A stretch of 64,000 bases of DNA from Chiloscyllium plagiosum (GCF_004010195.1 NC_057718.1:100899637-100963636); one strand, 5' to 3'; positions 16,759 through 63,525 are shown, counted from the first letter of the stretch. The notes: generated by a model from the letters alone, not told the origin. A program made the numbers and translations.

Positions 16759-16940
16759 CTCGCTGAGCTGCAAGGTTCACTTCCAGATGTTTCGTTACCT
16801 TACTAGGTAACATCTTCGCATGAGGTCCACTGAAGATGTTACCTAGTAAGGTAACGAAATGTCTGGAAATGAACCTTGCAGCTCAGCGAGCAAACCTACA
16901 TCCAAAACCTCAACCTGAGCTACAAATCATCTCAAAGCTC
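16759..16940. mobile_element. Palindromic Penelope-like element, second family
   Basis: 59-bp inverted arms at 16759-16817 and 16832-16890; hammerhead motif at 16826-16867. Confidence 0.75.
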
Positions 16941-17377
16941 ACAATGAAAATGCCTATTTATTTGTACGTTATAATTTGTGCTTTCTAACATAACATCATG
17001 CATGAACCAACCAACATTTCTTCTGTCCAGTTTTCAGTATGGGATTGCAAGCTCTATAACCAAATTCACTTTATTTGAAGTTCATCTTGCATTCCTATTT
17101 CACTGCATTTGCCCAGCAAAGATCTCAAAGGTGTATGTGATTATTTTGGTAATGCACTGGGTGATTCTAGTGTACTGGACCATGGGTACTAGGATACTCT
17201 GCATATGTGGCAATGCTTGGAATGAAAGCTTTTCCAGGTGGGAATGACACATATTTGATCTGCAAATAACTGTTTTTAAAAAAATGACTTGGCATTTCTC
17301 TACTGCTTTTCATGACCTTAGGAAGTGGCAAAGTATTTTCCAGTCAAATAATACTTTTGATAGGTAAGCACTGTTGT

Positions 17378-17890
17378 AGAAACACAGAAAATAGATGCCG
17401 GAGTAGGCCATTCAGCCCGTCGAGCTTGCACCCGCCATTCAATATGATTATGGCTGCTCATGCAATTTCAGTATCCCGCTCTCACTTCCTCTCCATACCT
17501 CATGGTCACTTCAGCTGCAAGGGTCACATCCAGCTCCCTTTTGAATCTATCTAATGAACTGGCCCCAACAGCTTCCTGTGGGAGAGAATTCCACAGCTTC
17601 ACAACTCTTGAGAAAAAAAAATGCTTCCCCTCCTCAGTCTTGAATGGCTTACCCCTTAGTGTTAGACTGTGACTCCTAGTTCTGGACTTTCTCCAAAGTA
17701 CAGGTGGTAGAGGCAGAAACCGTTCCAACAGTTAAGGGGTATTTAGATGTGCATTTGCAATGCAAGGCATACAAAGCTGTGGGGCAGATGTTAGAAAATG
17801 GGATTTGAATAGTTAGGCCATTAGTTTTGACTGGTTCAGGCTTGATGGACCGAAGGGCCTTTCTTGTGCTGTCAATCTCTATGATTCTTA
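17378..17890. mobile_element. Two adjoining CR1 3' fragments in opposite orientation (junction about 17700)
   Basis: Minus ORF TRSHSLTLRGKPFKTE...RVVKLWNSLPQEAV is a CR1 ORF2 end; a plus-strand CR1 tail follows. Confidence 0.75.
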
Positions 17891-18404
17891 ATGCGTTGGT
17901 ACATTTTATAATCGTGATGAAAAGAAAAACACTGCAGATGCTGTAAATTGAAAACAGTGTGTTGCAAAGCTCATCATTTGTACAGAAAATGTATTGGTTA
18001 ATCTTTTGTTTGGAGTTACCAGTATTATCATTCTCTGGGTTTTTTTTTTAAACAGATGCTGGAGGGCTGTATATTCTCCAGCTTTGATTATATTTTCCAT
18101 CGGCTCTTGAGGTTTAGCAATTTTTTATTCCAAATGAATAATGATTTAAGTCGCGGTGGCAGAGCAGAGAAGGAGGCCATTCAGCCCAATGTGTTTCTAT
18201 GCAAATCTCACACCCTGTGCTCTTCGCCATAGCTATCTGCAAGGATTAAGAGAAACAGAAATGGAGCATGTATCCAATTCCTCCATTGACTGGAGTGACT
18301 TCTTTAGGTCACACCAGATACTTTAGCTGTAAATGAGAGGCACTATCTCATTTCCACAACCCTTCTCACAGCCAGGCACAAAGAATCATGTCATTACTAA
18401 TTTT

Positions 18405-18536
18405 ACCACAACCACCTGATGAAGGAGCAGTGCTCAGAAAACTAGTGCTTCCAAATAAGCCTGTTGGACTATAACCTGGTGTTGTGTGATTTTTAACTTT
18501 GTCCACCCCAGTCCAACACTGGCACCTCCAAATCAC
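18405..18536 (+). mobile_element. Penelope-like terminal repeat, third family
   Basis: CAC-CTGATGA-AGGAGCAGTGCTCAGAAAACTA-GTG at 18413-18447; homologous to 35120-35282. Confidence 0.7.
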
Positions 18537-19521
18537 GGCATTGCTAATGGTTGAGTTATAACAGACACCAGAAAGCTGATGATGGGTCAAGCTGTTGACT
18601 CTCAAAACAAACAGCCATGAAGGTAAAACTTGGACACTGCCCTTTACAAATTCCAACTCAGAAGTGGCTAGCATTTAAAACTGTAATAAATAGAACAATC
18701 TCACATTTCCTCCCAGGAGTATCTAACACCAGCAGATTGATTAGTTTAGGTGTTTGCGCCCCCTTTGCATTAGTTCCCCAGCATAATCAAACAATCGAAA
18801 GATGCAGATAGAAGGAAAACCATCTTTTTCAGCTGCTTTCATGTTGTTCCTCTGCAGCTGTGATTTCAGAGGGTCATCCCACCACTTCCTCCTGACGAAG
18901 AAGTCTCCTACGGTAGTACGGCAAAGCCAAGTTGGCAGAATTGCCGAGGCTGGATGCAAGTTTCTTGCATCCCCACCTCAGTGAATCCGATAGTTGTGCA
19001 CTTTTAGCAGCCAACAGTAATCCCTTTGGGAGCCAGACCTCTTGCATTTCTCTAAACCTCATACACCAGAAGCTTCCAATGGTCTAAGAGGTTTTGTCAA
19101 CACAATCCCAACTCGAGGATCAGTGCCTCTGGTGATTTCATTTCATATGAAACACTCTTAATTGCCATGAGTCCTAAAATCCACTTCTGCCTAGGTAATG
19201 TTCTCCCTCCAGCTCCCTGTTTAATTAAAAATGCTCCCAATGCATTTGTGTTCTATATAGTTTTATATCTTGCTTGCATCTGAGGTTACCTCCCTTTGCA
19301 AATGTGAGGGGGTTGTCTGCACCCACTGGGCTAGAAATGCCTAGTGAGTCCTCCTGGTATTATCCCAAATTATCTGCAGACAAGCTAATATAGAATTAAT
19401 ATTTGAATGAGAATTGCAGAATTCCGACAGAGGCATGGGAAGTATTTAATTTTGAATGATATTTGATATTTCTGAGCTCATAGACTCCCTACAGTGTGGA
19501 AGCAGACCATTCAGCCCATCA

Positions 19522-20104
19522 TCAGAAAAGATTTACAAGGATGTTGCCAGGGTTGGAGGATTTGAGCTATAGGGAGAAGCTGAAGAAGGGCCTGTGCCCG
19601 AAACGTCGAATCTCCTGTTCCCTGGATGCTGCCTGACCTGCTGTGCTGTTCCAGCAATAAAGTTTCAACAATAGGGAGAAGCTGAACAGGTTGGGGCTGC
19701 TTTCCCTGGAGCATCGGAGGCTGAGGGGTGACCTTATAGAGATTTACAAAATTGAGGGGCATGGATAGGATAAATAGGCAAAGTCTTTTCCCTGGGGTTG
19801 GGGAGTCCAGAATGAGAGACCATAGGTTTAGGGTGAGAGGGGAAAGATATAAAAGAGACCTAATAGGCAACGTTTTCACGCAGAAGGTGGTACGTGTATG
19901 GAATGAGCTGCCGGAGGAAGTGGTGGAGGCTGGTACAATTGCAACATTTAAGAGGCATTTGGATGGGTATATGAATAGAAAGGGTTTGGAGGGATATGGG
20001 CCGGGTGCTGGCAGGTGAGACTAGATTGGGTTGGGATATCTGGTCGGCATGGACGGGTTGGACCGAAGGGTCTGTTTCCAGCTGTACATCTCTATGATTC
20101 TATG
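19522..20104 (+). mobile_element. CR1 (HER1-like) LINE 3' fragment
   Basis: ORF2 C-terminus (...RVWNELPEEVVEAGTIATFKRHLDGYM), 3' UTR and CTCTATGATTCTATG tail. Confidence 0.9.
19580..19670 (+). mobile_element. Short Penelope terminal-repeat fragment inserted in a CR1 LINE
   Basis: Begins at CTGAAGAAGGGCCTGTGCCCGAAACGTC; 16-bp TSD ATAGGGAGAAGCTGAA at 19569-19584 and 19671-19686. Confidence 0.8.
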
Positions 20105-23100
20105 TCCATACTGCCGAAGAGCATCCCACCCAGACACACAGCCCCTACCCTATTCCCCTGCATTTCCTGTGGCCAACCCACCTGACCTGCACATCTTTGG
20201 ACTGTGGGAGGAAACCGGAGCACCCGGAGGAAACCCACGCACATACAGAGAGAAGGTGCAAACTCCACACAGGCAGTCTCTCAAGGGTGGAATCGAGCCC
20301 GGATCCCTGATGCTGAGAGGCAGCAGTGCTAACCACTGAGCCGCCGTGCTGCCCCTGTCTGTTAATGGTCATTTTGGAAAGCTGGACAAGGCAAAATAAA
20401 TGAATTTATAAATTAAAAATAGAATGGACTTGGTTTAATTTTGAGAGCCTAGTCGTAAGGACCAACGTGCCCAATTTCAAGTGGGACAATTTCTGATGTC
20501 AACCTTTTATCTTATTTTGATGTCTGGACTTCTATGTCTGTACTAATATTTCTTTCAATAAATGAGCAAATATGTTGTACTACATGGAGACAAAAAGAAA
20601 TGTAATATCATAGGTTATTCAGTGACAGTTTCAGACTGCTGAAGCTTTGCAGGCAACCGAGACAGTGGTTCTGCATCCTATGGCTGTATAGTTGCAATTT
20701 TCTTTGGCGAGAGAAACAAAACAGTAGATTAAGCTTGTGGAAGAATCAATCTTTTGATATATCATCAAAGGCTCTAAGCAGCAATTAATGCACTCTTGGG
20801 ATGAGTTGACAGGGTTTCAACATCCATTTACGCAGCACTTGCTCGAGTTGTTTGGTGAAGACAACCTTTTTAAGATTATGCCAGAAGCATTTGAGTCAAA
20901 GGGAGAGAGGAGAACGAGAGTGAGCATGTCTTATTACTGCGATACCTAATTCTAGCCAAAATTCTGCAAGCACCCGAACCTCTGATGGAGTTCAGTCCCC
21001 CTTTCATGTTTTTAAACAAGCTTGTTTTTAAATGCATTTGTTGTGCAAACCCACACTGGTAGAAGTATTGTTCCAGTTGTTAAAAGAGTCAGTTTTGGTG
21101 AAAGCACTGAGGCTCATTAAGTTCTTGTGTACTAAAGGTCTCATTTCCTTTTATTTTCCTCCCTCTCCTGTCCAAGCTGCAGTAGGATAAAAGGCGTGAC
21201 AACTCTTTGAAAGCGGACACCGTTTCTGACTTGAGGATTAGTTGGAATGTCTCTGGTTTTCCTCCAGCGCCTCTTAGCGTGGCTTCTCTTAATTGTACAT
21301 GCTTACCTGCCATTCATTTCTCTTGGTGACAGCAATGAGTGCCTTTGCACATCAAAAGCTACAATGACCCAAACCGTGTAGAAGTGGGGAAACCCAGCTG
21401 GTAGGCTCACTCTGACCTTTCCCAAACCCGTCACTTAAGATTCACTGCCATCAAGTGTTGTTAACTTAGCCCATGGTACAGAATTAGCTGAACCTACTTT
21501 GCACTGACAGTACTTTCCAGGCCTCTTAAGCTCCTTGCCATTCAGGTGGATTTTTGAATAAAGCTCTGTTATTATCAATGTCTGATGGAAAATGACAATA
21601 CAACTATGTTTTTGTTAAATAGAAGTAATAACAATTGAGCCTTTTCTTCAGAAACCAAGACAAAACAAAAGGAATCTTGAATGCTACGTCAGTGTAGATC
21701 ACTGAAATTGATCAAAAGCGATACTAGACTGTCCTGTGTCAGCAAGCAGACATGTCCCCTTTTAAAACAAAACAGGGCCATGACTAATAATCTCCATCCC
21801 TCCGAGTTTCTCTGCTTTTCAGGTTTTACAATCCTCACACTTTGTTTTTCCAGGTGGCTGTCCTAGCCTGCATGTTACCACTGTGTAAAGATTGGTGGAA
21901 ACAGCTTCATGCTGTACATTTAATGTTCCACAGTCACCACACAGCCTTACAACTTCAAAGAGAGATGGAACTGCATTATGTAATGACTGCATGAGGGAAA
22001 TGATTAGAGATGCTAATTAGGAATGAGTTGTCTTGACTTGTGTAATTTTTTTTAATTGTCCGAGACACACACTGTTGTATGTAAGCAACTCTTGGGTAGG
22101 TCTCATTATAAAGCTTTTAACTTTGCTGAAGAGATGCTTTGTAAACACTTGATAACTAAATTGCAAAGGAGACCACTCACAAAATACAAGTAGTTCATGT
22201 GATGTAGAGTGGTACAATCCAATAGCTATGGACCCAAACTAATAATCGTGTGATCTATTAGCCCTGTCAGGATGCTTGACACCAATATGTTTAGAAAACT
22301 GGCAATCATCGCACAGTGGTGTGATTAATTTTCACTTGGAAACAGCTCAGATTTTTTAATGTACTGTACGGAGTGAAGTATAGTGTTTTTGAGGTGGCAG
22401 CAGATTAATGTAGCCTTGTACTCTGAGGGAGGCAAGGATAAAAAGAGAGCCTCAGCACATCCATTTTGTTGTGATGACACAGTCCAAACAGAAACTGGAA
22501 CAGATCCAACAATTACACAAAGGACAGGAGGGAGAATTTCTTTTGGATGTTTTTGCTAAATGTTTTTTTTGTGAGCCCATTGATGGGGATCTGTCTGCTT
22601 GTATTTAACCAACAAATTATACTGTTGGCAGAGAATGATCTTTTCAGCTTCACGAGTTCTGGGTTTAAGTTGCTCTGCTTGTCAGTACCAGTCTCCATAT
22701 CAACATACAGTGTGTGTCATTACCTAGAATATACATCATAGAAACAGACCATTTTAATGATTAACTTTAACAAACAGGCCATTCGGCCCAACCCATCTAT
22801 GTTGGTTGCTTGTGCTCCAGTCAAGTCTAGTTTAATCCTTCCTCATTTATCACTATCAGCAACGCCCTCTCTGCCTCATGTGCTTTACTCAATTCACCTG
22901 AAGCACTTGCTGTGGTGGTGAGCTCTAGAAATGGTCCCACTTTTAATTTAGAAAACCTTTCCGGACAGATTCTCTTTCTCCATGGATCACACATTGGATT
23001 TCTGTTGTAATTATTAAAAGGGTTGGACGGCAACGTCTACTATCCTATCTGAACTCCCACATTCCGAGCTTGCTGGAGAGCTGTGTGCATGGGAGTACCC

Positions 23101-27679: not shown

Positions 27680-27770
27680 CGAGAGTGTGTGCGATGCTGG
27701 AAAAGCACAGCAGGTCATGCAGCATCCGAGGAACAGGAGAATCGATGTTTCAGGCAGGAGCCCTTCATCA
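27680..27770 (-). mobile_element. Penelope terminal-repeat fragment
   Basis: Minus strand CTGATGAAGGGCTCCTGCCTGAAACATC; flanking duplication GCTGTGTGT at 27671-27679 and 27771-27779. Confidence 0.75.
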
Positions 27771-29949
27771 GCTGTGTGTGTAAACCATATCAGCATTTAA
27801 ATAAAAATGAATATCCAGTTATTATGCAGTTAACCCGATTATTATGGAGGAAGACTCTGCTGTGAATGCTGCATTCGTTCTGACCCCCACCAAACAAAAT
27901 TGCGGAAATCAAGCTATTTCTTATCTCTCCCATTCTTTATGTGAGTTGTTGGAATTTTAAAAAATGTGATCCTCTATATATATAATCTCCCAGAGCTCTT
28001 TCCCCGTTGACTCTTCATTATCTTTATTTGATTTACCTTTTCATTATCTGCAGTTTGTTTGTTGGGACATTGAAGTGTTGGATCATCACACAGTGCTATC
28101 AGAGAGGAAGGTCAATGGATGATTTTAAAAAAAGGGATGGTTTCAATTGCTTTGTGATTCCAAGACAACCAAGGCCGTTTTGTGTCCGAACACAAATTAC
28201 CTTTTGCACTGGCCTCCAGGTGACAGATGAGCCAGGTGTCTAGAATAATAGCAAAGATTCTGATTCTTGCTGACAATTAACACAGATAATTTGGTCATTT
28301 ATAACGTTGCTGTTTTGGTTCCAACGTTAGACCTCAGAGAACACGTCAAAGGGCACTTCATTGGCTGTAAAACCCTTTGAGAGATCTGGCGATTGTTAAA
28401 GGTGCTATAAAAGAATGCAAGTCTGTCTTCTTTTAGGTGGAAGCAGATTGGCTTCCATATTTCTCTTCATTGCACTTTGCTAGAAGACCCTGTTTGAAAA
28501 GTGTGTCGGGTGTCCTCGGGGTCATGAAAGGAGCAAAATATAAATGCAAGATTGTCTTGCATTTAATCTCCAAATTTATCCCTCTCACTGCTGAGGATGG
28601 AATTCAGAGTGTGTGCAAACCCTTGGCTGTAATTGTTCACATTGCCTTAGGAGTATGATCACACAGATACTTAGGCAAATAGCAAAGTGGTTTCTTGCAT
28701 CCTGCAGTGACCTACCCCAGACTGGGGGGCATGTAGCATTGTGCAGTGTTTATTTCCAATTGAAAGTCCCCAGACATGTTGAGATTATCTGATTTCCATC
28801 CGATTGGCATCGGGAATCGTGTGCTGTGCTGCAAAGGCACTCTAACTCAGTTAATAATTTCTGTTCAAATGTTCTGCAGTGATAGCAGTATTTACTGCTG
28901 GGTAGCTGATACTGTCTTTCAATAGTTAACAATGGGAAGGTGATGGTATTTGCAGATTTCACCCCCTCAGGACTGCTGGTATCTCCACGAGACTGCATCA
29001 GGCTTTGAAAGTGGCACTGCATAGAAAAAGTTGGAAAAGCACAGTTTTGAAGGCACCCTTGAAATGTAAACAGAGGCCACTAACAGGACTCAGCGTCTGT
29101 GAACTCTGAAGCAGGGGACTCCGTACAATTGAAAGTATTTAATTCATTCTGAAATGACAGCAGCGGTGTTAGCAAAACCTTTCTTTTCTTATTGTTTCCA
29201 CTTCAAAACCTTGCATTGTCTCTGCCACACGTGACGACGTGATGATAAAATGTGGTGCACTGCCCCCCTCGTTCATTCTGTTTCCCTCAACAGCCCAAGA
29301 TTAGCCAGCATTTCTGCACCAAGATATTGTTTCTTTTTAAGGGCGAGTCCCCTCCTAATTGGCCCTGAAGGAACTGCGCTTGGCTTGGCTTGGCTTAGTT
29401 GTGAGGGGTCAACAGCAATTACATCACTGTACATCACAAACCCTTTATACAAAGGCTACCAGTGCCTTTCCCGTTGCCCCGGAGACAGACATCAAAAGCT
29501 GAATCCCACGTTACAAAAGTGGCCACTTGGGTTGAGTTCCATGCTCGTTTGCGCATCAATGGGAGGGATTTACATTTCTGCTGCAAACCAAAACTAAAAA
29601 AAATGCTGTAGTGAAAACAGCAATTTAAACGAGTTTTTTTTTAAAGGAAATTCGACCAAGAGTCACATTGGGCATGAAACGTTAACACTGTTTCTCTCTC
29701 TGCAGATGCTGCCAGACCTGCTGAGTTTCTTCCCTGTGTTTGTTTAACATTTCCAGCATCCGCAGTATTTTACTTCCATTTCAGGAGCAGACGGCCAGCA
29801 TCCTGGAGTCTCCTGTACAGGTCATGGAGGCAATGATCATGAACATGGAAAATTTCCTAGATTCCAAAATCCTCCTGCAAAGTAGAAAATAACTAATGTC
29901 ACACTATTATTCAAGAAAGGTAGAAGCCAGAAGGCAGGATGCTGTAGGT

Positions 29950-31617: not shown

Positions 31618-31863
31618 GGAGAAAGTGAGGACTGCAGATGTTGGAGATCAGAGCTTAAAAATGTGTTGCTGGAAAAGCGCAGCAGGTCAGGCAGCATCAA
31701 AGGAGCAGGAGAATCGACGTTTTGGGCATCCATGGCCATGCTAAATTGCCTGTAGTGTTAGGTGTATTAGTCCTGAAGAAGGGCTTATGCCCGAAACATC
31801 GATTCTCCTGCTCCTTTGATGCTGCCTGACCTGCTGCGCTTTTCCAGCTACACATTTTTAGGC
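31618..31863. mobile_element. Palindromic Penelope-derived element with an HE1 fragment in the loop
   Basis: Same family as 38007-38228; 13-bp TSD TTTGATAGCTGGA at 31605-31617 and 31864-31876. Confidence 0.8.
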
Positions 31864-35119: not shown

Positions 35120-35282
35120 AACACCAAAATAAAAAATCACACAAGGTTATAGTCCAACAGGTTTAATTGGAAGCACTAGCTTTCAGAGCGCTGCTCCTTC
35201 GTCAGGTGGTTGTGGAGTATAACCTGGTGTTGTGTGATTTTAAACTTTGTATACCTCAGTCCAACACCGGCATCTCCAATTC
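35120..35282. mobile_element. Partially palindromic Penelope-like element, third family
   Basis: Minus strand CAC-CTGACGA-A-GGAGC-AGC-GCTCT-GAAA-GC-TA-GTG at 35174-35208, followed by an inverted partial arm. Confidence 0.75.
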
Positions 35283-43113: not shown

Positions 43114-43548
43114 CAAAATCATCCTTTAACCTCCACATTGAAAGGAAAACAAACCAATTACTTTTTAATGGTGAAACGTTGTTGGATATCATAGTGATTT
43201 CCCATTATCTGACAGACAGCTCATCCGCTCCACAATAACGTGTACTTTGACCATCTGATACAGTACTGTGTTTGGGTTTTGGTGAGATAATTGGTAGTTA
43301 GTCATGCAGTCAGCTCCAGGTATGTTATATTTCTATAAAGTAAAACAAAGAACTGTGGATGCTGGAGATCTGAAACAAAAATGAACATTGCTGGAGAAAC
43401 TCAGTTGGTCTGGCAGCACCTATGGCGAGAGAGGAACAGAGTCAGTGTTTTGAGTCCAATGAGTCTTCCGATTAACTCTGCTTTCTTCCCACGGATGCTG
43501 CCAGGCCTGCTGAGTTTCTCCAGCAATGTATGCTATACTGTGGTTTAG

Positions 43549-43730
43549 GCGAATGTGAGGACTGCAGATGCTGGAGAGTCAGAGTTGAGATTGTGGTGCT
43601 GGAAAAGCACAACAGGTCAGACAGCATCCGAGGAGCAGGAGACTTCCTGATGAAGGGCTTTTGCCTGAAATGTCAATTCTCCTGCTCCTTGGAATCTGCC
43701 TGATCTGCAGTGCTTTTCCAACACCACACT
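43549..43730. mobile_element. Palindromic Penelope-derived element
   Basis: Inverted arms, CTGATGAAGGGCTTTTGCCTGAAATGTC core, 16-bp TSD with one mismatch at 43533-43548 and 43731-43746. Confidence 0.8.
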
Positions 43731-43966
43731 CTATACTTTGGTTTAGCTGGGTCAGACCCAAATTGTTGTCGATAATGTGTATCTTGTGTTAGGATGAATG
43801 TTTGAAAAGTTGTTAAGCCATCCTATAGTCACAAAAGACCCCACATCAGTCAGCAGATGTTGACGTGCCATGTCTGATTTTAAACCATACAGAATAATTC
43901 CAATGTTTTATGTATTTGCAATGCAGTTTTATATATGCTACCACCTGACTAACTTTTCTTGCAAGT

Positions 43967-44449: not shown

Positions 44450-46839
44450 CACTTCCCTCCTACATTCATGTGTATATTTCACAATTTATTGTCTTCAGAG
44501 GAGCTGAAGTTGAGATATAATAATTAGTAAGCAACAATTTATTGCCTTCTGAAGAATTTGGGCTTCAAGTCATCATACGCAGAAATAGGCTATTTGGCCA
44601 ATCAATTCTGTGCTGTACTCTTGTAATGTGTCAAGCCAGAAGATGAAGGATAACACAACACATGATATTAGCTTAGTCATAAATGCCAAGAAGCCCAAAG
44701 AAATAGACTTCACCCTAGATCTCACTGAGTAAAGTGCTTTTTCATTCTGTGAAGCTTGAAATGTAAAATTGACATTGTTGACTTTAAATCAGCATTGTAA
44801 AGTCCTTCTCTTGTCTCGCCCTTTCCTTTTTATAAACTTGCTTGGAGCAGGGCTTATATTTTTGGGGTTTAGGTGGGAATATGGTGTTGAGACCATGATT
44901 AGATAGGCCAAGATCCTACTGGAGAGTGGACCAGACTCAAGGGGTTGGATGGCCAAGGGCTGATCCGAGTTCGTAAGACACACCTTACAACAACTTTTCA
45001 TGACTGGGAATGATGACTGATAATGTACAAATTTCAATGACATATTGAGTGAGGACTGTCTATCAGAGGTGCCTGTCTTTCAGCTGAAGTATTAAACCTG
45101 TCAGATGGACAAAAAAATAACAATTCCCTGATATTTTACTTGAAGTCAAAGAATTGCCAGTTTCAATCAAAATCACTGAAACAGATTTTTCAATCACTTA
45201 TCTCACGGCAGTCTGTGGAACAATGCTGGTCTCAAATTGGCTCCTGAATTTCCCTACGTTACAACAGTGATCAGATTTCAAAAGACTTTATATTTCCTTC
45301 TTTCTTTTCTTGTTTCCTTCCATCTTTCTTTCTTTATTTATTACCTTTTTGTATAGGTCATCCCGTAGTACTGTTTGGTAGAAAGTCTTTGGCTTTGACC
45401 CAGTGACAGTGGAGGAAGGTGATATATTTCCAAGTCAGGAATGGGGAGTGACTTGGAGGGGAACTTGCATGAAGTGATGTTCCCATGTACCTTCTGCCCT
45501 TGTCCTTCTAAATGGTGGAGACCACAAGTTTGGAAAATGCTGTCAAGGAACCTTGAACCTTGGGATTAAATGGTAAACAAGAGACATAGTCCGAGAATTA
45601 GGGCCAGGCTATTCAGGAAAGATGTTAGGAAGCATGTCTACACACCAAGGGTGGTGGATGTTTGGAACTCTCTTTGACCAAGGGCAAATGGATGCCTCAT
45701 TTTTGATAAGCAAAGGTATGAAGGGAAATGGGCAAAAGGTAGGTTTATGGTGTAAGGCCACAGATCAGCCACGATCTCATTGAATGGGCTGAATGGCCTC
45801 TTCCTGTTCCTGTGTTCCTATGTACATACTTGAGCTGCAATGTACCACTGGTGGAGAGGGCAGATGTTTAAGTTGGTGGATGCAATGCCAATAAAAAGGA
45901 AGACGTTTGTTTGCAGTTTTACAAACCTCACAGGAACATCCACTCAGTTGAATAAGTCCATATGGGTGTTTATGGCCCATGTGAGATTCCACCAACTCTC
46001 TTGATCTCACCCATATCAATACTTAATTCTCTTTTACTCACTCTCAAGCTTGTCCACCTTGCCTTTAACTTTTTTTCATCTATTCCCAATTGTCATGAGT
46101 TTCATATTCTCACCATGCTCTTGGTAAAGAAGATTCTCTTGAATTCCCTGTTGGACTTATTAGTAACTGGCTTGTATTTATGGCCCTAAGCTCCGGTCTC
46201 AGCTGCACTTTAAGTGTTATCAGAAGACATCTTTCAAAGCTATGGAGTATTGTATAGTTAGCAAATGTCATTTGCAGGCACATTTATATCATGTCTAGCC
46301 ATGAGTTCCTAAGCTGATCTAACATGGGCGATCTAATTGTGGTCAAGAAGAATCCTTCAATCACTCTGTCAGCCTGATTTGAATGTCAGTCACAGAGGTG
46401 AAAAAATGTCTCACAATTCCTTTTGTAGTTGGTTCTCACTGCTCTCCTTGTTTCAGAGACAGATGTTGATTCCTGTGGTGTATGACTTAGTGCAATGTTG
46501 TGTCTAAGTAAAATTAATGTGTCGTGGATTTTTGAAGCTGACTTGGAGCAAGATGAATTTAAACAAAAAGACAAGGTTGCTACTTTCCTGAACTGCACAC
46601 ACCTACTGCAAGCATGTGCCAACAAAAAAACCTCAAAGTGGTCGAACCGTTTTTTAAATGTAAGTTTGTTTTCTGACTTCTTCCTGAAGGGTTACAGCAA
46701 AGCTGTCTGCCATTGTGAAAGTATAATGTCGCAACCCTCAAAGTAACAGGCTCTTTGGTTTACTCCTGTTTCTTTCTCTTGAGAAATTATTTTTGTAGAT
46801 TTAGTCAATGCTTTTTCTTTGACCTACCAAGTACACAGT

Positions 46840-46967
46840 CATTCTTGATGAAGGGCTTTTGCCTGAAACATCAATTTTCCTGCTCCCCGGATGCTGCCTG
46901 ACCTGCTGTGCTTTTCCAGCACCACTCTAATCTTGACTCAAATCTCCAGCATCTGCAGTACCCACTT
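46840..46967 (+). mobile_element. Penelope terminal-repeat fragment
   Basis: Same family; 17-bp TSD CCTACCAAGTACACAGT at 46823-46839 and 46968-46984. Confidence 0.8.
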
Positions 46968-47257: not shown

Positions 47258-47910
47258 TCAGAAACAAAAACAAAAACTACTGCAGAAATTCAACAGCATC
47301 TGTGGAGGGAAAAAAGAGATAACATTTTGGGTCCAGTGACCCTTCTTCAAACCCATTGAGTTTTCCAACAATCTCTTTTTCTGTATCTGATTTCCAGTAT
47401 CCACAGTGCTCATTTTTACTGGAGAAAAACTCAGCAGCTCCGGCAATATTCATGGAGAGAGAAACTGTATTAATGACCTTTCATCAGAGCTGAAGAGAAA
47501 TGGAGTTTTAAGAGTATTTAAGCCATTGGGAGAGGGGAGAGCGCTGGAAGAGGAACGGAGAAGTTTGATGATAGGGTGGTGGCTGAGGGAGAGTGTACAA
47601 TAAATTGTAATAACAGAACTGCGACAGGGTTTCCTGTCCTCACTTACCACTCTAACAGTCTCCACACTCCTGAGTCCCGATGAAGAGCTCCGGCCCGAAA
47701 CATCGATTTTCCTGCTCCTCGGATGCTGCCTGACCTGCTGTGCTTTTACAGCAACACACTCTCAACTCTGATCTCCAGCATCTGCAGATCTCACTGTCTC
47801 CACACTCAACAGGTCATCCTTTGTCATTTCAACAAGTTCTAACATAATGCAAGCACCGAAGGTGTTTTCATTGCCCTCCCCTTGTAGCATTCTGCAGGGA
47901 TTGTTCCTGT
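47258..47910. mobile_element. Cluster of Penelope-like remnants, with a younger terminal-repeat insert at 47670-47795
   Basis: Older GTTAAC-type arms plus decayed ORF-like sequence (about 47623-47910), interrupted by an insert with TSD GTCTCCACACTC at 47658-47669 and 47796-47807. Confidence 0.65.
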
Positions 47911-53340: not shown

Positions 53341-54014
53341 TACCAAGCAACACTCAGATTTCATTGAAGTACCATTGTTGCTCTTTCCATTTGTAAGAGG
53401 AGCCTCCAACAGTAGCTCATTTGTTGGTGATGTAAGTCTCTGAAGGTGCTGGAGATGAAATGGGGGGGGAATGCATTGAGCATGTCTCGGCTGTATGTGT
53501 TGTACCCTCTCCTAGCTCTTCCTCCCGTTCCAATTTACAATCAGTTTAGATAATCCCTGTCGGTAAATCCTTTGGCACCCAAGATGGAGTTGAAATTGGA
53601 TGAAATGCAAATGACAACTGGTACAAAGATTAATGCAATTACTGGTGGTTAAAAAAAAAAAGAAAAGAACGGTATTTAAATTATGTGAAATTCTTATTGT
53701 TGAAAGCTCTGGACGTTTTGAAGGCCAGTCATTTCTTCCTTCCGCAGTCTGGTCACTCTGTGTTTAGCTAGATTGAAGTTTGGAGTATCACACAAGAACT
53801 CTCTACCACCATACTGCTTCCAATTCATAGTATTCACATGTCCAGCTCAGGTCTATCTGAGAAATGCAAATGTCTCTGAAACCATTGATGTTCAGGCAGA
53901 AATTCCCTGGGTTGGATCGGGGCTTGTGCCCAAAGTTGAGACACGAAAGCCTATAATGGCCTCCTTTATCAAACAGCATAAAAAAAAGATTGTGTAAAGA
54001 GGTACAATAGAAAG

Positions 54015-54706
54015 AGACCTAAGAGTGCAGGTTCATAATTCCTTGAAATGGGAGTCTCAGATAGACAGGGAGATGAAAAAGGCATTTGGTGCGCTTGCCT
54101 TTATTGTTCAGCATATTGCGTATAAGAGTTGGGAGGTCATGTTGCAGCTTTACAGGACATTGGTTAAGCTGCTTTAGGAATACTGTTCAATTCTGGTCTC
54201 CTTGCTATAGGAAGGATGTTGTTAAACTTGAAACAGTTCCAAAAAGGTTTACAAGGATGTTACTACAGTTGGAGTGTTTGAGCTATAGGATGAGGCTGAA
54301 TAGGCTGGAGTATCGATGGATGAGGGGTGACCTGACTGAAATTTATAAAATCATGAGGGGCATGGATAGGCTGGATAGCCGAGATCTTTTCCCCAGGGTT
54401 GGGGAGTCCAAAACTAGAGGGTATAGGTTTTAAGGTGAGATGGGAAAGATTTAAAAGGGATTTAAGGGGCAACTTTTTCACGCAGAGGGTGGTGTGTGTA
54501 TGGAATGAGCTGCCAGAGAAAGTGGTAGAGGCTGGTACAATTATAACATTTAAAAGGCATCTGGATGGGTATATGGATAGGAAGGGTTTGGAGGGATATG
54601 GGTCAAATGCTGGCAAATGGAAATGGACTAATTTCAGTTATCTGGTCGGCATAGACACTTTAGACTGAAGGGTCTGTTTCCATGCTGTACGTCCCTATGA
54701 TTCTAT
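54015..54706 (+). mobile_element. CR1 LINE 3' fragment
   Basis: VQFWSPCYRKDVVKLETV.KRFTRML...; ends CTATGATTCTATG. Confidence 0.9.
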
Positions 54707-54862
54707 GTTAGTGTTAGTCTATTCTTTCACCAGAACCTTGTGTGGTTCATTTTTTTAAGTTGAGGAAAATCTCTCTTGTTATCCTTACCTTTCACCCAGC
54801 GCATGTTCATTCATTTTTCTTTCATATTTATATCAGACCTGAATCTAATATGTCCCCGAAAT

Positions 54863-55145: not shown

Positions 55146-56879
55146 ATGATGTATTCTGCTTGCACGGATGACTTTCATGAATATTAAAGTTTATTTTCTC
55201 AAAAAAAGTAGCCTTTCTCCCACACACAGAAACTCAAGAATAAAACATCTTTAATTTGCTTTGTTTATTTAAATGGTTTCACAGCTCCTCTGCTTCATAA
55301 ACTGTTCAGAGTAATGTCAGTGCAACATAATAAAAATCACTTGTGGTTCTTAAAATAGTCCCTAAATAATTCAATGTTTAGTTGTTTTATAACTATGAAA
55401 TATGCAGGAAAATAAACTGTTTGGTTCCATACAAAGCTCTGAGCTGATCATATTTTTATGACCCTGAGGTCCTTTCTCCTGCAATAAATCCTGGAGTCTG
55501 AGATTGAGATTTCATTTTACCACTGACTGATCCAATCTCTTTCCACTTGAAAGAGGGTGAGGAAGAAATGGTTGTCCGTTTCTTATAACTGTATTTCATT
55601 GTCTCAATGAAATGTTCAACTGCGGAGTAATAACTTGGATTAGCATCTCGATTAGTTTGCAGTCAGCAATCTGAAACATGTGACAAGATGGGGTTTAAGT
55701 GTGAAAGTGGATTTGAGGTTGTGTTGGTTGAGCTCTTAAAGTGGCATAAGTCTTAGTTGCACAAGGCATTAACCTAATGTGTTGGGATTGGTTCTCAGAC
55801 TCTAGATTCCTTTATTGAGTATCAAGCATATAAGAATGCTCTTGTTATGAGATATTACTACATACCTCAGGAACAGGTAGGACTTGAGCCCTGGCATCTT
55901 GCCTCAAAGATAGGTTTACTACTAATGCACCACAAGAGAACACACGTCCAGCTTGGAGACACAAGCTGTTGCCAACTTTCAGCAAAGTGAAACTGAAAGT
56001 GGATTGCATGATACACTTGACTGTTTCCCTTCTAGTGGTCTATGCAGGTATGCACTCATACCCTTACTGGCATGATCTTATTGAATTGTGGGGCACCATT
56101 GAGGGGCTGAATAGCCTACTGTTGCTTATGTTAATTCTCTAACCATTCTTGATGTGTTTGTCCTGCTGAAAGTGTTATGTTTAAGTTTCAGTGCCTTGTA
56201 CATTACTCTTCACAACACCGTCAGTTGAGTCTCTGGAAAGAATCTAAAGAATCTAATGAGCAGCATGGGGACTCTTTGGAGGGTCGGTGTGGACTCGATG
56301 GGCTGAATGGCCTGCCTCCACATGTAAGGATTTTATGATTTGGTAGCTCCTACCTTGCAGCTTTGGGACACACTCCAGTTATTTGTTCAAGTTGCCATCT
56401 GTCATAGGGAATAATAAATTATTCACCAGTCTGATTCAGTGAACCTTTAATCACATTAATTTAAGCTGCTGTATTGAAAAATCTAAATTTTTTTAAAATA
56501 AAAACTCTGCACTTAAAATGGATGTAATCTTCAACTAGAAACCAGGTTACTCTAAATTAGACTTGATGTTTATTCCCTCAAGGGATGAGGGCACCTTTGG
56601 CTGGGCCAGCATTTATTGCCCATCCCCAATTGCCCAGAGAGCATTTAATAGTCAACCACATTGCAGTGGATCTGGCATCACATGCAGGTCTGACGAAGGT
56701 AGGAATGAAAGTTTCCTTTCCAAAAGGACATGAGTGAACCAGGTGGGTTTTTCTAACAATTGACACATCGCCATCATTAGACTCTTAATTCCAGATTTTT
56801 TACTGAGTTCAAATTCCACCAGCTGCCGTGGGGGGATTCGCACTCAGGTCTCCAGGACATTACCTGTGTCCGTCAATTA

Positions 56880-57470
56880 CACACATGTGTCCATTGTTCT
56901 CAATGTGGTCTCCTCTACATCGGGGAGACAGGACGCCAACTTGTAGAGCACTTCAGAGAGCATCTCTGGGACATGTGCTGACCACTTCAACTCCCCGTCA
57001 AGGGCATGCAGATGTTGGGCCTCCTCCATCGCCATACCCTAACCACCCAACGCCTGGAGGAAGAACGCTTCATCTTCCACCTTGGGACCTTCAACCACAT
57101 GGGATCAATGTTGATTTCACCAGTTTCCTCATTTCCCCTCCCCCCACCTTATCCCAGATCCAACTTTCCAACTCAGCACCACCGTCTTGAACTGTCCCAG
57201 CTGTCCATCTTCCTTCCCATCTATCCATTCCACCCTCCTCTCCGATTTATCAGCTTCACCCCCACCTCTATCTACATATTGCATTCCTGGCTACCATTCC
57301 CCCTGCATTTATCTCTTTGCCCCCATTCTCCCCCCCGATTCCTGATGAAGAGCTTATGCTCGAAACTTCAACTCTCCTTCTCCTCAGATGCTGCCTGACC
57401 TGCTGTGCTTTCCCAGCACCACACTTTTCAGCTCTGACTTCCAGCACCTGGTGTCCTCACTTTCCCCTCT
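56880..57470 (+). mobile_element. Penelope-like retroelement, 5'-truncated: GIY-YIG remnant plus terminal repeat with hammerhead motif
   Basis: From 56895 it encodes CSQCGLLYIGETGRQLVEHFREHL; ORF 57006 gives MQMLGLLH...RLEEERFIFHLGT. Hammerhead core CTGATGA-A-GAGC-TTAT-GCTC-GAAA near 57342-57365. Flanking duplication GTCAATTA at 56872-56879 and 57471-57478. Confidence 0.85.
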
Positions 57471-59826: not shown

Positions 59827-60442
59827 CCATAGCCAGAGTACAAAGCAGTGATGATATGGATCAGATAGCTCACTCAAGGTCTTGTCAGCCCTTGTTTAGT
59901 AGTTAAAATAATTTCCTGGACTCAGACCAAGCCCTCAGTGCCAGCATGGTGAATGTAAAAAGTCTAGTCTTCACATGCCCCTGAGGAAGAGAATGCTGCT
60001 TTGAGCCGTATCCCTCTGATTAGGAGTTTCACATTCAATTACAAAGACAAATGCTCACGGAGCTCTTTTGTCTGAAAAGCCTCAGCATTCCACAAAGCTA
60101 AAGAACAATTGTAAGACTGTCGCCTTTTTTAAATATCAACTTAATTTCTTTGATGTGCTAAATTATTTTATATGAAAGAATTTTAATCAAATTGCTTCAG
60201 AAAGTACAATTACCTAACTATTAAATTTATGCAAGATTATGGAAAATTCATTCCCATCGTTATCTTAAAGGAAAATGCTTCCTTGATTTCAGTAATTTTT
60301 CATTTAAAAGAAAAGTGGAAATTTTCCTAAACTTTGCCTCTTTTACTTGCTGCTATTAGCCAGCTCTTCTCTAATCCTAACCTCCAACATTTGTGAATTG
60401 TAGAATCCCTACAGTGTGGAATCAGGCCATTCGACCTATCAA

Positions 60443-61413
60443 GGGGTATAGTTAGTAAGCTTGCTGATGACACCAAAATTGGAGGTGTAGTGGACAGTGA
60501 AGAAGGTTAGAGCTGAAAATGTGTTGCTGGAAAAGCGCAGCAGGTCAGGCAGCATCCAAGGAACAGGAGACTCGACGTTTCGGGCATAAGCCCTTCTTCC
60601 TGAATTCTCCTGTTCCTTGGATGCTGCCTGACCTGCTACACTTTTCCAGCAACACATTTTCAGCTCTGATCTCCAGCATCTGCAGCCCTCACTTTCTCTA
60701 GTGAAGAAGGTTACCTCACATTACAACGGGATCTTGACCAGATGGGCCAATGGGCTGAGGAGTGACAGATGGAGTTTAATTTAGATAAACATGAGGTGCT
60801 GCATTTTGGGAAAGCAAATCTTAGCAGGACTTATACACTTAATGGTAAGGTCATTGGTTAGGCCACTGTTGGAATATTGCATGCAGTTCTGATCTTCCTA
60901 TCGGAAAGATGTAATGAAACTTGAAAGGGTTCAGAAAAGATTTACAAGGATGTTGCCAGGGTTGGAGGATTAGAGCTTTAGGGAGAGGCTGAACAGGCTG
61001 GGGCTGTTTTCCCTGGAGCGTCGGAGGCTGAGGGGTGACCTTATAGAGGTTTATAAAATCACGAGTAGCATGGATAGGGTAAACAGACAAAGTCTTTTCC
61101 CTGGGGTCAGGAAGGCCAGAACAAGAGGACATAGGTTTATGGTGAGAAAGGAAAGATATAAAAGAGATCTAAGAGGCAACTTTTTCACTCAGAGGGTGGT
61201 ATGTGTATGGAATGAGCTGTCAAAGGAAGTGGTGGAGGCTAGTATAATTGCAACATTTAAAAGGCATCTGGATGGGTATATGAATAGGAAGGGTTTGGAG
61301 GGATATGGGCCAGGTGCTGGCAGGTGGGACTAAGTGGTTTGGGATATCTGGTTGGCATGGATGGGTTGGACTAAAAGGTCTGTTTCTGTGCTATACATCT
61401 CTCTAACTCTATT
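60443..61413 (+). mobile_element. CR1 LINE 3' fragment with an internal deletion near 60852
   Basis: Starts at the RT motif SKLADDTKIGG, continues through the ORF2 C-terminus and 3' UTR. Confidence 0.9.
60510..60699. mobile_element. Palindromic Penelope-derived element inserted in a CR1 LINE
   Basis: Inverted arms; 14-bp TSD AGTGAAGAAGGTTA at 60496-60509 and 60700-60713. Confidence 0.8.
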
Positions 61414-61780
61414 TGTCACACCAACCCTCTGAAGACCATCCCACAGAGACTCAGTCCCCTATCCTATTCCACGGCCAAAGTTTGGACTGTGGGAGGAAAC
61501 TGGAGCACGAAGAGGAAACCCACACAGGCAGGGGGTGAATGTGCAAACTCTACATAGACAATTGCTCGGGGGTGATATGAGAAGTTCTTAGATTCCTTTC
61601 TCACTCAAATAAAGTCCAAGCAGTTTTGGTTGCTTCCCTAAACTGCTTACTCACTGAATCAAGCCTTCCTCATAAAAACTGTCTCCTTCAACCTTTGCAA
61701 CATTGATGGACTCAGCCTATCATACTTGCAACCCTCTTTCATTCCCTTCAAGATTTGATGCTTCTATATTGATTTGAGAC

Positions 61781-62385
61781 AAAAAAAAACTGCAGATGTT
61801 GATATCCAAAGTAGACAGGCAGGGGGCTGGAAGAACACAGCAAGCCAGGCAGCATCAGGAAGTGGAGAAGTCAACGTTTCGAGTATAACCCTTCTTCAGG
61901 ACTGGGAGTGAGTGGGGGGTGGGGGAGGGGGGTGCAGGTAAAGATGGTGGGGTGGTGAAGTTAAGATAGGTGAAGACAGGTAGAGGGTACAACCTGTTTG
62001 GTCAAGGTTAGGAATGACTCCGGTTGGTGGCAAGGAGCAGTGGAAAGGAAGGGGAGGGGCTGGGAAGGGAGTAGGGAGATGGGAATTTCAAATAACTACC
62101 CTTCCCAGTCGCTCCCCCTCCCTTCCACTCCTCCCAGCGACCAACTAGGTCCATTCCTCCCATTGACCAACAAGGTCGAACCCTCTCTACCTGTCTTCAC
62201 CTATCCTCACTTCACCACCCTGTCCCTCCTCCCCCCCCTCCCCTCCACCCCACTNAACCCACTCTGTTTATCTGCAACTCACCCTACACCCACCCCAGTC
62301 CCAAAGAAAGGTTACAACTGAAACATCTCCACCTCCTGATGCTGCCTGGCTCACTGGGTTCTTCCAGCCTCCTGCTTGTCTATTG
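61781..62385. mobile_element. Long (about 600 bp) fold-back Penelope-derived element
   Basis: A G-rich left arm and C-rich right arm are imperfect reverse complements; intact hammerhead motif on the minus strand at 61869-61903; contains the single N at 62255. Confidence 0.75.
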
Positions 62386-62704
62386 TAGATTGATGTACCA
62401 TCCTTCACCCTCAATTCATCCACATGCAAAATTCTAAGAGTCCTCACCTTGTTGGCACTAACTTTCATTGACGTTTGATAGCACTGACCAGCACTAGGTT
62501 CTGATCCCTCAGTCCATCGCATTTAACGTCCTCATGCTTGTATTTTAGATTTTCTGTGGTCTCACCCCTTTCTGTCTTTATAATCGGTCCCACCAATACT
62601 AACCTTTTCTTCCATCTTTTTCACTCAGCACTCCCTCTTCTCTGCTTTTCTGATCCAAATCATCTTTGTATCCTGCACTTCATCCCTTGATCAGAGTTTT
62701 TAAA

Positions 62705-63525
62705 ATTTATTTGATTTATTATCATGTGTGCCTAAGTATGTTGAAAAGCTTTGTTTGTGAGCAGTATAGGCAGATCATAGAAAGCAAGGACATACAGATC
62801 ATAGGGTGGAAAAAAAAGCTTGGACAGAGGCATACAGGCTACACTGTGCAGGGTGTGCAGTGGACAAGAGCAACATTCCTGAAGAAGGGCTTATGCCCGA
62901 AACGTTGATTTTCCTGTTCCTTTGATGCTGCCTGACCTGCTGTGCTTTTCCAGCAACACATTTTTAAGCTCTGATCTGCAGTCCTCACTTTCTCCTACAA
63001 GATCAGCATTGGCAAGATCAACATTATTTGAAGTTAGAGAGTCCATTCACCTGTCTGATAACGGCTGGGAAGAAGCTGTTCCTGAAACTGCTGGTGCTTG
63101 GTGATGGAAAAGCACAGCAGGTCAGGCAGCATCTGAGGAGCAGGAGAATCAAAGTTTTGGGCCATAGCCCTTCATCAGGAAACAGCTTATGCCTGAAACG
63201 TCGATACTCTTGCTCCTCGGATGCTGCCTGACCTGCTGTGCTTTTCCAGTAACACACTCTTGAGCCTGCATCTGTAATCCTCACTTTCTCCGGATGGAAG
63301 AGGTTGTAGGAGAGCATTGCCGGGGTTTGATGGGACTTTGATGATGTTGGTGGCATTTCTGTGGCAAGAAGCTGTGTAAATAGAGTCTGTGGGTGGAAGT
63401 TTGGCTTCCATGATAGATGGGCTGTGCGCATCACCTTCTCTCGGTTCTTATGGTCCTGGGCAGAGCAGTTGCTGCACCAGGCCGTTATACCACCCAGACA
63501 GTATGCTTTCTGTTATGCGTCTGTT
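62705..63525 (-). mobile_element. Rex1/Babar-like LINE 3' fragment with two Penelope-derived inserts (about 62875-62996 and 63100-63292)
   Basis: LPPTDSIYTASCHRNATNIIKVPSNPGNALLQPLPSG and SFRNSFFPAVIR match the recalled Rex1/Babar ORF C-terminus. Confidence 0.7.

What the first reader, a model, noticed from the sequence alone, without database searches (positions are those of the whole stretch)
16759..63292. Window-wide set of minimal hammerhead ribozymes in at least four unrelated Penelope-like repeat families
Seen: repeats with otherwise different sequence share one layout, stem I - CTGANGA - N - stem II hairpin - GAAA - NN - TH - stem I'. Examples: TCCA-CTGAAGA-T-GTTACCT(AGTA)AGGTAAC-GAAA-TG-TC-TGGA (16826-16867, +); CAC-CTGACGA-A-GGAGC(AGC)GCTCT-GAAA-GC-TA-GTG (35174-35208, -); AGTC-CTGAAGA-A-GGGT(TAT)ACTC-GAAA-CG-TT-GACT (61869-61903, -); CTGAAGA-A-GGGC(TTAT)GCCC-GAAA-CG-TC (about 38104-38131, +). 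Stems differ between families but keep pairing, and within one family GGGC/GCCC changes to GAGC/GCTC (about 57350-57361). Established: Penelope-like elements carry minimal type I hammerheads whose helix III is reduced to a short palindrome (here ACGT or AGCT) and which are thought to cleave as dimers. Inference: this intronic region holds more than a dozen intact or decayed self-cleaving motifs on both strands. The class is known; I cannot tell whether these shark families have been described.
Basis: partly seen in the sequence, partly recalled or inferred. Interest (0 to 1): 0.78.

Follow-up and report, generated by a model that had tools for sequence, protein, structure and literature searches.

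The report
Penelope stubs carrying minimal hammerhead ribozymes
These are real minimal hammerhead-ribozyme motifs of a known kind, left in an intron as short, likely dead end-pieces of Penelope-like jumping genes, and about a third of the sampled pieces begin just in front of the ribozyme rather than at its cut site, which likely marks where the element's uncut RNA starts.

Summary
The motifs are real: 12 intact cores in the window against 0.1 in shuffles, and about 96 per Mb genome-wide. They fall into three lineages, not four unrelated ones (A/D/E, B, C). Each is now tied to a Penelope-like GIY-YIG endonuclease, and A to a 770-aa RT+EN frame. The class is published. The window copies are short TSD-flanked solo or head-to-head insertions, many predicted to be masked by their antisense arm. 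The added result concerns 5' ends: 48 of 148 unselected family-A arms end in five bases at the hammerhead's front edge, and only 4 near the cut site. The hot spot carries an excess G (67 of 100, versus 46% at other junctions). It sits on an initiator-like A, and in family C 32 nt behind a TATAAA. The likely cause is reverse transcriptase running off capped, uncut RNA. No direct RNA evidence was obtained. The scan reported similar readings on other DNA, including this genome (unchecked notes). Verdict: new member of a known kind.

The parts
56814..57464 (+). Family A copy with a decayed GIY-YIG endonuclease remnant (56814-57211), 3' UTR, hammerhead (core from 57342, GAGC/GCTC stem II) and tail
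   Evidence: tblastn E=7e-19 to a PLE frame from L059
38007..38228 (.). Family A head-to-head insertion: - arm starts at -36 and ends at +61, + arm starts at -28 and ends at +97 (tail); hammerhead cores at 38095(-) and 38104(+); 14-bp TSD
   Evidence: predicted 90-bp hairpin, -185.8 kcal/mol, z=-25.5
60509..60696 (.). Family A head-to-head insertion: - arm from -32, + arm from +1, joined at stem-I microhomology; 14-bp TSD; lies inside another repeat
31618..31861 (.). Family A head-to-head insertion (arms from -14 and -30, 41 unrelated nt between); core at 31773(+); 13-bp TSD
43548..43730 (.). Older family A head-to-head insertion (arms from +3 and -31); core at 43647(+)
63099..63291 (.). Older family A head-to-head insertion (arms from -31 and -18); - arm core has one change
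62874..62995 (+). Family A solo stub from -33 to +97; intact core at 62879 with ACGT palindrome
19580..19669 (+). Family A (subfamily A2) solo stub from -28 to +62; TSD with 5-nt microhomology; lies inside another repeat
46839..46967 (+). Family A solo stub from -34 to +95; core with one change; 17-bp TSD
47663..47801 (+). Family A solo stub from -44 to +97; core with one change
27695..27771 (-). Family A solo stub from -28 to +49; intact core, palindrome lost
61804..62390 (.). Family D (relative of A) head-to-head insertion with about 200 bp of 3' UTR per arm; intact hammerhead at 61869-61903(-), decayed one on +
   Evidence: downstream of a GIY-YIG frame in L038
13266..13455 (.). Family E (relative of A) head-to-head insertion, 60 bp upstream of the FLRT3 coding exon's splice acceptor
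4951..5050 (+). Family E solo stub starting at the front edge of a hammerhead with one core change
16759..16940 (.). Family B (Poseidon-type, inferred) head-to-head insertion: + arm from -50 with hammerhead 16826-16867, - arm starting inside the core; open frame starts at the ATG at the foot of stem II
   Evidence: endonuclease next to 16 of 20 family-B loci
18406..18533 (+). Family C solo stub from -39 to +89; intact core at 18416, palindrome lost; about 10-bp TSD
35125..35279 (.). Family C head-to-head insertion; hammerhead 35174-35208(-) with AGCT palindrome; + arm from +20 to +87; 10-bp TSD
11225..13207 (-). Host context: FLRT3 single coding exon (660 codons); the window likely lies in a MACROD2 intron transcribed on +
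   Evidence: best PDB match FLRT3, E=2e-174; Macro-domain exons on + about 115 kb and 425 kb downstream; FLRT3 is embedded in MACROD2 in human (PMC2947401, passage)

Best explanation
The motifs are the minimal type I hammerheads of the terminal repeats (pLTRs) of three lineages of Penelope-like retrotransposons, present in this intron as short, likely dead insertions that were likely made when the element's reverse transcriptase started at its internal priming sites 60-100 nt behind the ribozyme and ran off the capped 5' end of an uncut transcript that is predicted to begin just in front of it. Numbering: 0 = first base after the predicted cut. SHOWN: hammerheads lie downstream of RT/GIY-YIG frames, and in a tandem junction the tail runs on into the next unit's frame. 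Family-A arms end at about +62 or +97; half have an inverted partner; many carry TSDs; 5' ends pile up at -33..-29 and not at 0. INFERRED: (1) the pLTR promoter fires at the A at -32 (A/D/E) or -37 (C), so the hammerhead is the first 36-41 nt of the RNA, whether a full-length message or a short transcript from a solo pLTR; (2) the protein nicks both target strands and primes at one or both tail sites, so one cDNA gives a solo stub and two cDNAs joined at their 3' ends give a head-to-head palindrome with the tail on one side; (3) the extra G is partly the copied cap; (4) in active elements the ribozyme works only as a protein-assisted dimer through its ACGU/AGCU palindrome, and cut RNA is not the main template; (5) the intronic copies do not cut host pre-mRNA to any meaningful degree.
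For: PLE link: family-A hammerhead downstream on the same strand in 24 of 30 RT loci; 770-aa frame with RVT_1 (E=5e-8) and GIY-YIG (E=3e-4); endonuclease remnant in the window; B endonuclease in 16 of 20 loci; C endonuclease 0.8-0.9 kb upstream in 3 loci. L312 joins 3' UTR, hammerhead, tail and N-terminal frame, with an ATG 167 nt after A(-32); L352 shows the same continuation. Geometry of 148 unselected A arms: 5' ends 48 at -33..-29, 32 over -27..-3, 4 at -2..+2, 25 beyond -60; 3' ends 69 at +48..+73 and 79 at +88..+98; 74 with an inverted partner; 21 of 53 short solos with TSD of 6 bp or more against 0 of 53 in a swapped-flank control. Family C: 18 of 44 arms start at -39..-28. Genome-wide, 5,359 copies have a non-consensus base before A(-32) against 484 at -36. 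G before the hot spot: 67 of the first 100 in A, 63 of the first 100 in C, 13 of 16 true C boundaries. An extra G at full-length L1 5' junctions is attributed to the cap (PMC11702581, passage). TATAAA starts 32 nt before C's hot spot; TTATCT lies 30-32 nt before A(-32) in five A/D references. In vitro a Penelope protein nicks and extends both strands, primes internally at two tail sites and uses unprocessed RNA (PMC11167929, parts 1-2 read).
Against: The G signal is not specific: G is also 30 of 66 at other junction positions and 6 of 13 at true -36 boundaries. The contrast 67/100 vs 36/79 has p=0.006, and some Gs are templated by the G-rich partner arm or the TSD. Among solo copies alone the numbers are small (4 of 6 vs 11 of 36). 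Family B shows no pile-up at the hammerhead in 34 arms, most of them selected for a whole hammerhead. No transcript start was observed. Arkhipova and colleagues read head-to-head junctions as self-priming on an antisense template (PMC3846280, passage), a different route to the palindromes. Local-alignment ends are uncertain by 2-3 nt.
Confidence: 0.68

Rival explanations
1. The hot spot is a structural or protein roadblock, not an RNA end: reverse transcriptase copying the long 3' end of the message stalls or switches template on leaving the folded or protein-bound hammerhead, or microhomology at ATTC/TTC favours joining there.
For: The peak coincides with the 5' strand of stem I; many inverted junctions use TTC/GAA or AT microhomology; 32 of 148 arms end within the hammerhead body; G is raised at all junctions.
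Against: A fold would be expected to stop the enzyme on entry (3' side), not after it has passed (inference). In family C the peak is at -38/-37, 5 nt upstream of stem I and 32 nt behind a TATAAA. Solo copies, which have no partner arm, also start there. Isolated motifs fold weakly (z from -2.0 to +0.55).
Confidence: 0.15
2. The stubs are their own non-autonomous family (SINE- or retrozyme-like): a few short master copies, processed by their ribozyme, were amplified in trans and passed on their 5' boundary.
For: Very high copy number of short pieces (28,555 exact 36-mers) against few long copies; animal retrozymes are described as PLE derivatives (10.64898/2026.07.22.740005, part 1 and passages); same-strand short tandems occur at some loci (L052).
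Against: Sequence upstream of the boundary and the inverted junctions differ from copy to copy; 5' ends are not at the cut site (4 of 68 arms at -1..+1 among those ending -27..+20, p=0.62); the same peak recurs in several subfamilies and in unrelated family C; no head-to-tail hammerhead array is seen in the window.
Confidence: 0.08
3. Some copies are functional self-cleaving elements kept by the host to process or down-regulate MACROD2 or FLRT3 pre-mRNA.
For: 12 intact cores, 8 in the sense of the likely MACROD2 transcript; core positions differ slightly less than flanks among copies (1.5% vs 3.3% in young A1 copies, p=0.04; 3.6% vs 5.6%).
Against: Density is near the genome-wide background; 6 of 12 have lost the dimer palindrome; palindromic copies are predicted to be double-stranded; the core-versus-flank difference is confounded by alignment ascertainment and hidden subfamilies; published minimal motifs are inactive as monomers.
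Confidence: 0.04
4. The short and palindromic forms arose after insertion (deletion of hairpin centres) or are assembly artefacts at inverted repeats.
For: N gaps are frequent in and beside these elements; long palindromes are unstable (own knowledge).
Against: Solo stubs and palindromes are flanked by TSDs; arms are asymmetric in a fixed way (tail on one side); fold-back joints at -32 and -34 also appear in raw reads.
Confidence: 0.05

Closest known systems
Minimal type I hammerheads (min-HHR) in pLTRs of metazoan Penelope-like elements (Cervera and de la Pena 2014, PMC4209133; parts 1-2 of 4 read)
   Same: Core, unpaired base before stem II, G10.1-C11.1 pair, palindromic helix III, short stem I; thousands of dispersed single motifs ascribed to truncated PLEs; pairs close together on opposite strands already noted
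   Different: The parts read list teleosts, coelacanth (about 4,000), Xenopus (about 9,000) and reptiles, not cartilaginous fish; supplements not opened. Here roughly 3x10^5 intact cores are extrapolated from a 0.97-Mb sample, and the truncation point is mapped.
EN+ PLE insertion units of the Neptune/Nematis and Penelope/Poseidon clades (PMC8557442 and PMC3846280, passages seen)
   Same: Single RT + C-terminal GIY-YIG frame, partial tandems, inverted 5'-truncated copy, 30-40-bp one-sided tail, TSD, TATA/Inr-like elements in the pLTR
   Different: Those passages describe variable 5' truncation and suggest self-priming on antisense RNA; they do not report a pile-up of 5' ends with an extra G at the hammerhead's front edge.
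Poseidon element of Anolis carolinensis, PAc (Frangieh et al. 2024, PMC11167929; parts 1-2 of 4 read)
   Same: Two internal RT start sites bounding the tail; both strands nicked and extended; unprocessed RNA is the substrate; family B, like PAc, has its ATG at the foot of stem II
   Different: PAc data are in vitro; the families here are untested. In family A the ATG lies 135 nt behind the cut site.
Non-LTR retrozymes (10.64898/2026.07.22.740005, part 1 and passages)
   Same: PLE-derived, non-coding, type I hammerhead; reported in one chondrichthyan
   Different: Retrozymes are head-to-tail arrays; the window copies are solo or head-to-head and begin before the ribozyme, not at its cut.

Membership tests
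Minimal type I hammerhead of PLEs | Catalytic core CUGANGA / GAAA / UH in type I order | tested here: met
   12 window sites vs 0.1 in shuffles; in flank-anchored family-A copies the majority base is the core base at every core position
Minimal type I hammerhead of PLEs | One unpaired base before stem II and a G10.1-C11.1 pair | tested here: met
   Majority sequences of A, B and C groups; D (n=5) and E (n=4) majorities read G-T and G.G, too few to judge
Minimal type I hammerhead of PLEs | Helix III reduced to a palindrome | tested here: met
   ACGT in A, B, E and AGCT in C at family level; kept in only 6 of 12 window copies
Minimal type I hammerhead of PLEs | Compensatory changes in stems I and II | tested here: met
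   Stem I pair 1 is C-G (A, C, D), A-T (B), T-A (E); pair 2 is T-A, C-G or A-T; stem II differs wholesale yet pairs. No R-scape-type statistic was run; subfamily A1 has a U.U mismatch in stem I
Minimal type I hammerhead of PLEs | Core conserved beyond flanks among genomic copies | tested here: inconclusive
   1.5% vs 3.3%, 3.6% vs 5.6%, confounded; dead copies are not expected to show it
Minimal type I hammerhead of PLEs | Site-specific self-cleavage as a dimer or with the element's protein | not testable with these tools
   needs bench work
EN+ Penelope-like element | Single frame with RT followed by GIY-YIG endonuclease | tested here: met
   L287:1283-3592(-), 770 aa (GIY-YIG score 21.4 is just under Pfam's 22.6 cut-off). 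For B and C only the endonuclease end was examined
EN+ Penelope-like element | Partial tandem forming a pLTR ahead of the frame | tested here: met
   L312; L352
EN+ Penelope-like element | Inverted 5'-truncated copy, one-sided 30-40-bp tail, TSD | tested here: met
   74 of 148 arms with inverted partner; 3' ends near +62 or +97; TSDs
Neptune/Nematis clade (families A, C) | [quoted passage not shown] | tested here: met
   CxxxxCxxC ahead of the endonuclease in A and C; feature taken from PMC8557442
Neptune/Nematis or Penelope/Poseidon clade | Placement in an RT phylogeny with named references | not tested
   No named reference sequences were fetched; clade names are inferred from linker and ATG position
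Non-LTR retrozyme | Head-to-tail tandem units each with a hammerhead | tested here: not met
   Window copies are dispersed solos or inverted pairs
MITE (DNA transposon derivative) | Fixed-length element with symmetric terminal inverted repeats and fixed TSD | tested here: not met
   Arms asymmetric, centres variable, TSD length variable, parent encodes RT

The most novel reading that the evidence does not exclude
Tens of thousands of genomic stubs record, base by base, the capped start of Penelope-like transcripts: the hammerhead is the very first structure of the message, its stem-I strand doubles as the initiator element in the A/D/E lineage, and the templates that get inserted are uncut. 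The ribozyme would then act as a switch that removes a 32-nt capped leader (taking an RNA out of translation or out of stub production) rather than as the enzyme that releases the insertion template, and head-to-head palindromes would be two run-off cDNAs from one double nick.
Probability: 0.35. Interest if true: 0.7.

Novelty: new member of a known kind. Interest (0 to 1): 0.4.

Why it matters
The finding as given is ordinary for a PLE-rich genome. Its value is as a natural data set on an open question: what the PLE hammerhead does, and how PLE inverted ends form. If the stubs mark the capped start of uncut RNA, they support in vivo what was seen in vitro for one lizard element (uncut RNA as template), argue against the cleave-and-circularise model as the main route to insertion, and give exact promoter and start-site predictions that one 5' RACE can test. 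They also warn that hairpin and ribozyme scans in such genomes will return some 10^5 dead hits, and that many introns carry long perfect double-stranded RNA.

Tried and rejected
Rfam scan: no hammerhead family detects these motifs; microRNA hits only reflect the palindromes. DNA search of the own genome with the stub returned nothing because common words are skipped. Pfam on 12 window frames found only FLRT3. Cleavage-site footprint: looked for and not found (4 of 148; 4 of 68, p=0.62; the partner-arm part counts some palindromes twice and was not used for the -32 peak). An apparent common 5' end of four long copies inside the frame dissolved when the frame was traced further upstream. L059 and L070 are not full-length units. 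Sequencing runs: no RNA holder listed for FLRT3. Laying two single-cell runs on the tandem junction gave 1,770 reads in one run and none in the other, 94% running on into unrelated sequence, and no pile of molecule starts: no test of the start site. The MAFFT alignment across families misplaced family C by one column, so no pair-count tool was run. The pattern included the consensus base by mistake and served only as a denominator (27,431 matches, 93 of the first 100 with T). A downstream promoter element was looked for by eye and not found at the canonical spacing. Lunse et al. 2017 (PMC5785218) is not held and is known to me only from a reference list and recall. Not-in-print searches; none listed a paper on these families or on a start-site pile-up, but Repbase/Dfam, subscription journals and the supplements of the papers read were not seen.


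Full report
1. Observation. Every motif cited is present at its coordinates. A descriptor with an exact core and at least 3 of 4 outer stem-II pairs gives 12 sites in the window (8 +, 4 -) against a mean of 0.1 in 20 shuffles. Reference BLAST lists 40 segments, about 38 arms, of these families. The same descriptor gives 93 sites in 100 evenly spaced 10-kb stretches (969,587 non-N bases; shuffles 2-4). That is about 96 per Mb, which would extrapolate to some 3x10^5 in this 3.56-Gb genome. The window's 12 is twice the mean (p=0.023, chosen after the fact). Exact family words occur 28,555 (A), 3,452 (C) and 140 (B) times, with 0 for the reversed controls. Rfam does not see them.

2. Context. The only long gene-like frame is FLRT3 (11225-13207, -). 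Macro-domain exons lie on + about 115 and 425 kb downstream, and human FLRT3 is embedded in MACROD2 (PMC2947401, passage). The window is therefore likely MACROD2 intron. No tool named the organism.

3. Families. A lies downstream of an RT on the same strand in 24 of 30 loci. L287 holds a 770-aa RT + cysteine linker + GIY-YIG frame, and the window itself has an endonuclease remnant at 56814-57211 ahead of the 57342 hammerhead. B has an endonuclease in 16 of 20 loci, two of which overlap, and its ATG sits at the foot of stem II as in the Anolis Poseidon element. C has its own endonuclease 0.8-0.9 kb upstream in three loci; only 1 of the 30 loci picked by the C motif reaches it. Clade names are inferred; no tree was built.

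4. Ribozyme anatomy. Family-level majority sequences keep the core, the unpaired base before stem II and (A, B, C) G10.1-C11.1. Stem I pair 1 is C-G, A-T or T-A, pair 2 is T-A, C-G or A-T, and the helix-III palindrome is ACGT or AGCT. This matches the published minimal motif (PMC4209133, parts 1-2 read). The window copies are decayed: 6 of 12 keep the palindrome and 4 of 12 also keep 3 of 4 stem-I pairs. Isolated motifs fold no better than shuffles by much. Head-to-head copies fold into long duplexes that bury most or all of the ribozyme. Core positions differ a little less than flanks among copies, but ascertainment and hidden subfamilies confound this.

5. Insertion geometry (0 = first base after the predicted cut). 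I anchored family-A arms on +8..+62, not on the core. I kept those at least 87% alike over at least 40 nt and dropped pattern-selected locus centres and RT/EN-selected loci: 148 arms (the number of candidates before filtering was not printed; an earlier pass kept 158 of 260). 3' ends fall in two groups, +48..+73 (69) and +88..+98 (79; +98 is the reference limit), the known one-sided tail. 74 have an inverted partner. 21 of 53 short solos have a TSD of 6 bp or more, against 0 of 53 controls, and window palindromes have TSDs around the whole unit, so each is one event. 5' ends: 48 at -33..-29, 32 over -27..-3, 4 at -2..+2, 9 at +3..+10, 16 at -60..-35, 25 further up. There is no excess at the cut (4 of 68 at -1..+1, p=0.62). 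Family C: 18 of 44 arms start at -39..-28, 8 of them at -38/-37. Family B: no such peak in 34 mostly pre-selected arms. Genome-wide, 5,359 copies of one A subfamily have a non-consensus base directly before A(-32), about a fifth of the roughly 25,500 that reach -31, against 484 at -36.

6. Why there. Three lines point to a transcription start. (a) G precedes the boundary in 67 of the first 100 listed A copies (18 A, 15 T; hand count) and 63 of the first 100 C copies (19 A, 18 T). Among 20 C copies inspected, 4 ran on upstream and 13 of the other 16 had G. An extra G at full-length L1 junctions is ascribed to the cap (PMC11702581, passage). Against: G is also 30 of 66 at other positions and 6 of 13 at true -36 boundaries (7 of 20 dropped as running on). 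The contrast is p=0.006, and part of the G comes from partner arms or TSDs. (b) TATAAA begins 32 nt before C's hot spot. A(-32) sits in a YYANWYY context (consensus recalled), and TTATCT is kept 30-32 nt upstream in five A/D references whose other bases differ. TATA/Inr elements in pLTRs are reported (PMC3846280, PMC2377424, passages). (c) In the tandem junction L312 the tail runs straight into the N-terminal frame, with an ATG 167 nt after A(-32). A message starting at -32 would thus carry the hammerhead and both priming sites at its 5' end. In vitro, a PLE protein primes at just such internal sites, extends both strands and uses unprocessed RNA (PMC11167929). Priming at the 5' copy and running off the cap gives 95- or 130-nt cDNAs, the sizes seen. 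One cDNA gives a solo and two give a head-to-head pair (inferred). An RNA test failed for lack of resolution.

7. Rivals. A structural stop after the hammerhead, a non-autonomous master, host co-option and post-insertion deletion are weighed above; the first remains live.

8. Comparison and novelty. The finding meets the tested features of PLE minimal hammerheads and of EN+ PLE insertions; cleavage could not be tested. It is not a retrozyme array or a MITE. The class, the dispersed single motifs and the opposite-strand pairs were published in 2014. My searches listed no paper on these families or on a start-site pile-up, but repeat databases, subscription journals and supplements were not seen. 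My reading was fixed, which showed that the scan has reached similar readings on other windows of this and other genomes (unchecked notes, not independent support). Two of those notes report a second peak at the cut site, which I did not find in family A here.

9. Verdict. Real, well above chance, a new member of a known kind; the window copies are most likely inert. Interest 0.4, carried by the start-site hot spot rather than by the ribozymes themselves.

Noticed in passing
window 11225-13207 (-): Intact FLRT3 coding exon with a splice acceptor at 13207; Macro-domain exons lie downstream on the opposite strand, so the FLRT3-in-MACROD2 nesting known from human is likely kept here (upstream MACROD2 exons not located).
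   Followed up: partly
window 13266-13455: A family-E palindrome predicted to form a long hairpin only 60 nt upstream of the FLRT3 3' splice site; a possible editing substrate or splice modifier.
   Followed up: no
family B loci L201-L220, L090, L097: TATAAA sits about 50 nt before the core in both B subfamilies, followed at equal spacing by a conserved GCTTC; the window's B arm starts there. A candidate start site for Poseidon-type elements.
   Followed up: partly
L108, L070: Family C carries a (TG)n/(CA)n microsatellite in the roughly 0.8-kb stretch between endonuclease and hammerhead.
   Followed up: no
L314-L324 (G000:C1:136150325-136152488): An 11-fold, 213-bp head-to-tail array made from the N-terminal coding part of the family-A element, without a hammerhead.
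   Followed up: no
L052: Three same-strand family-A hammerheads 224 and 320 bp apart behind the frame: a retrozyme-like short tandem.
   Followed up: no
L287:1283-3592 (-): A 770-aa uninterrupted RT + GIY-YIG frame, 5'-truncated with local duplications; copies of this subfamily are 97-99% alike, so it was recently active.
   Followed up: partly
window 19478-20354, 40339-41100, 43958-44449, 54011-54707, 60400-61574: Other repeat families (likely a LINE 3' end and a SINE; labels from recall, not tested) host several of the Penelope stubs.
   Followed up: no
L327 flank: The flank reads by eye like an LTR-element or retroviral RNase H region; observed only.
   Followed up: no
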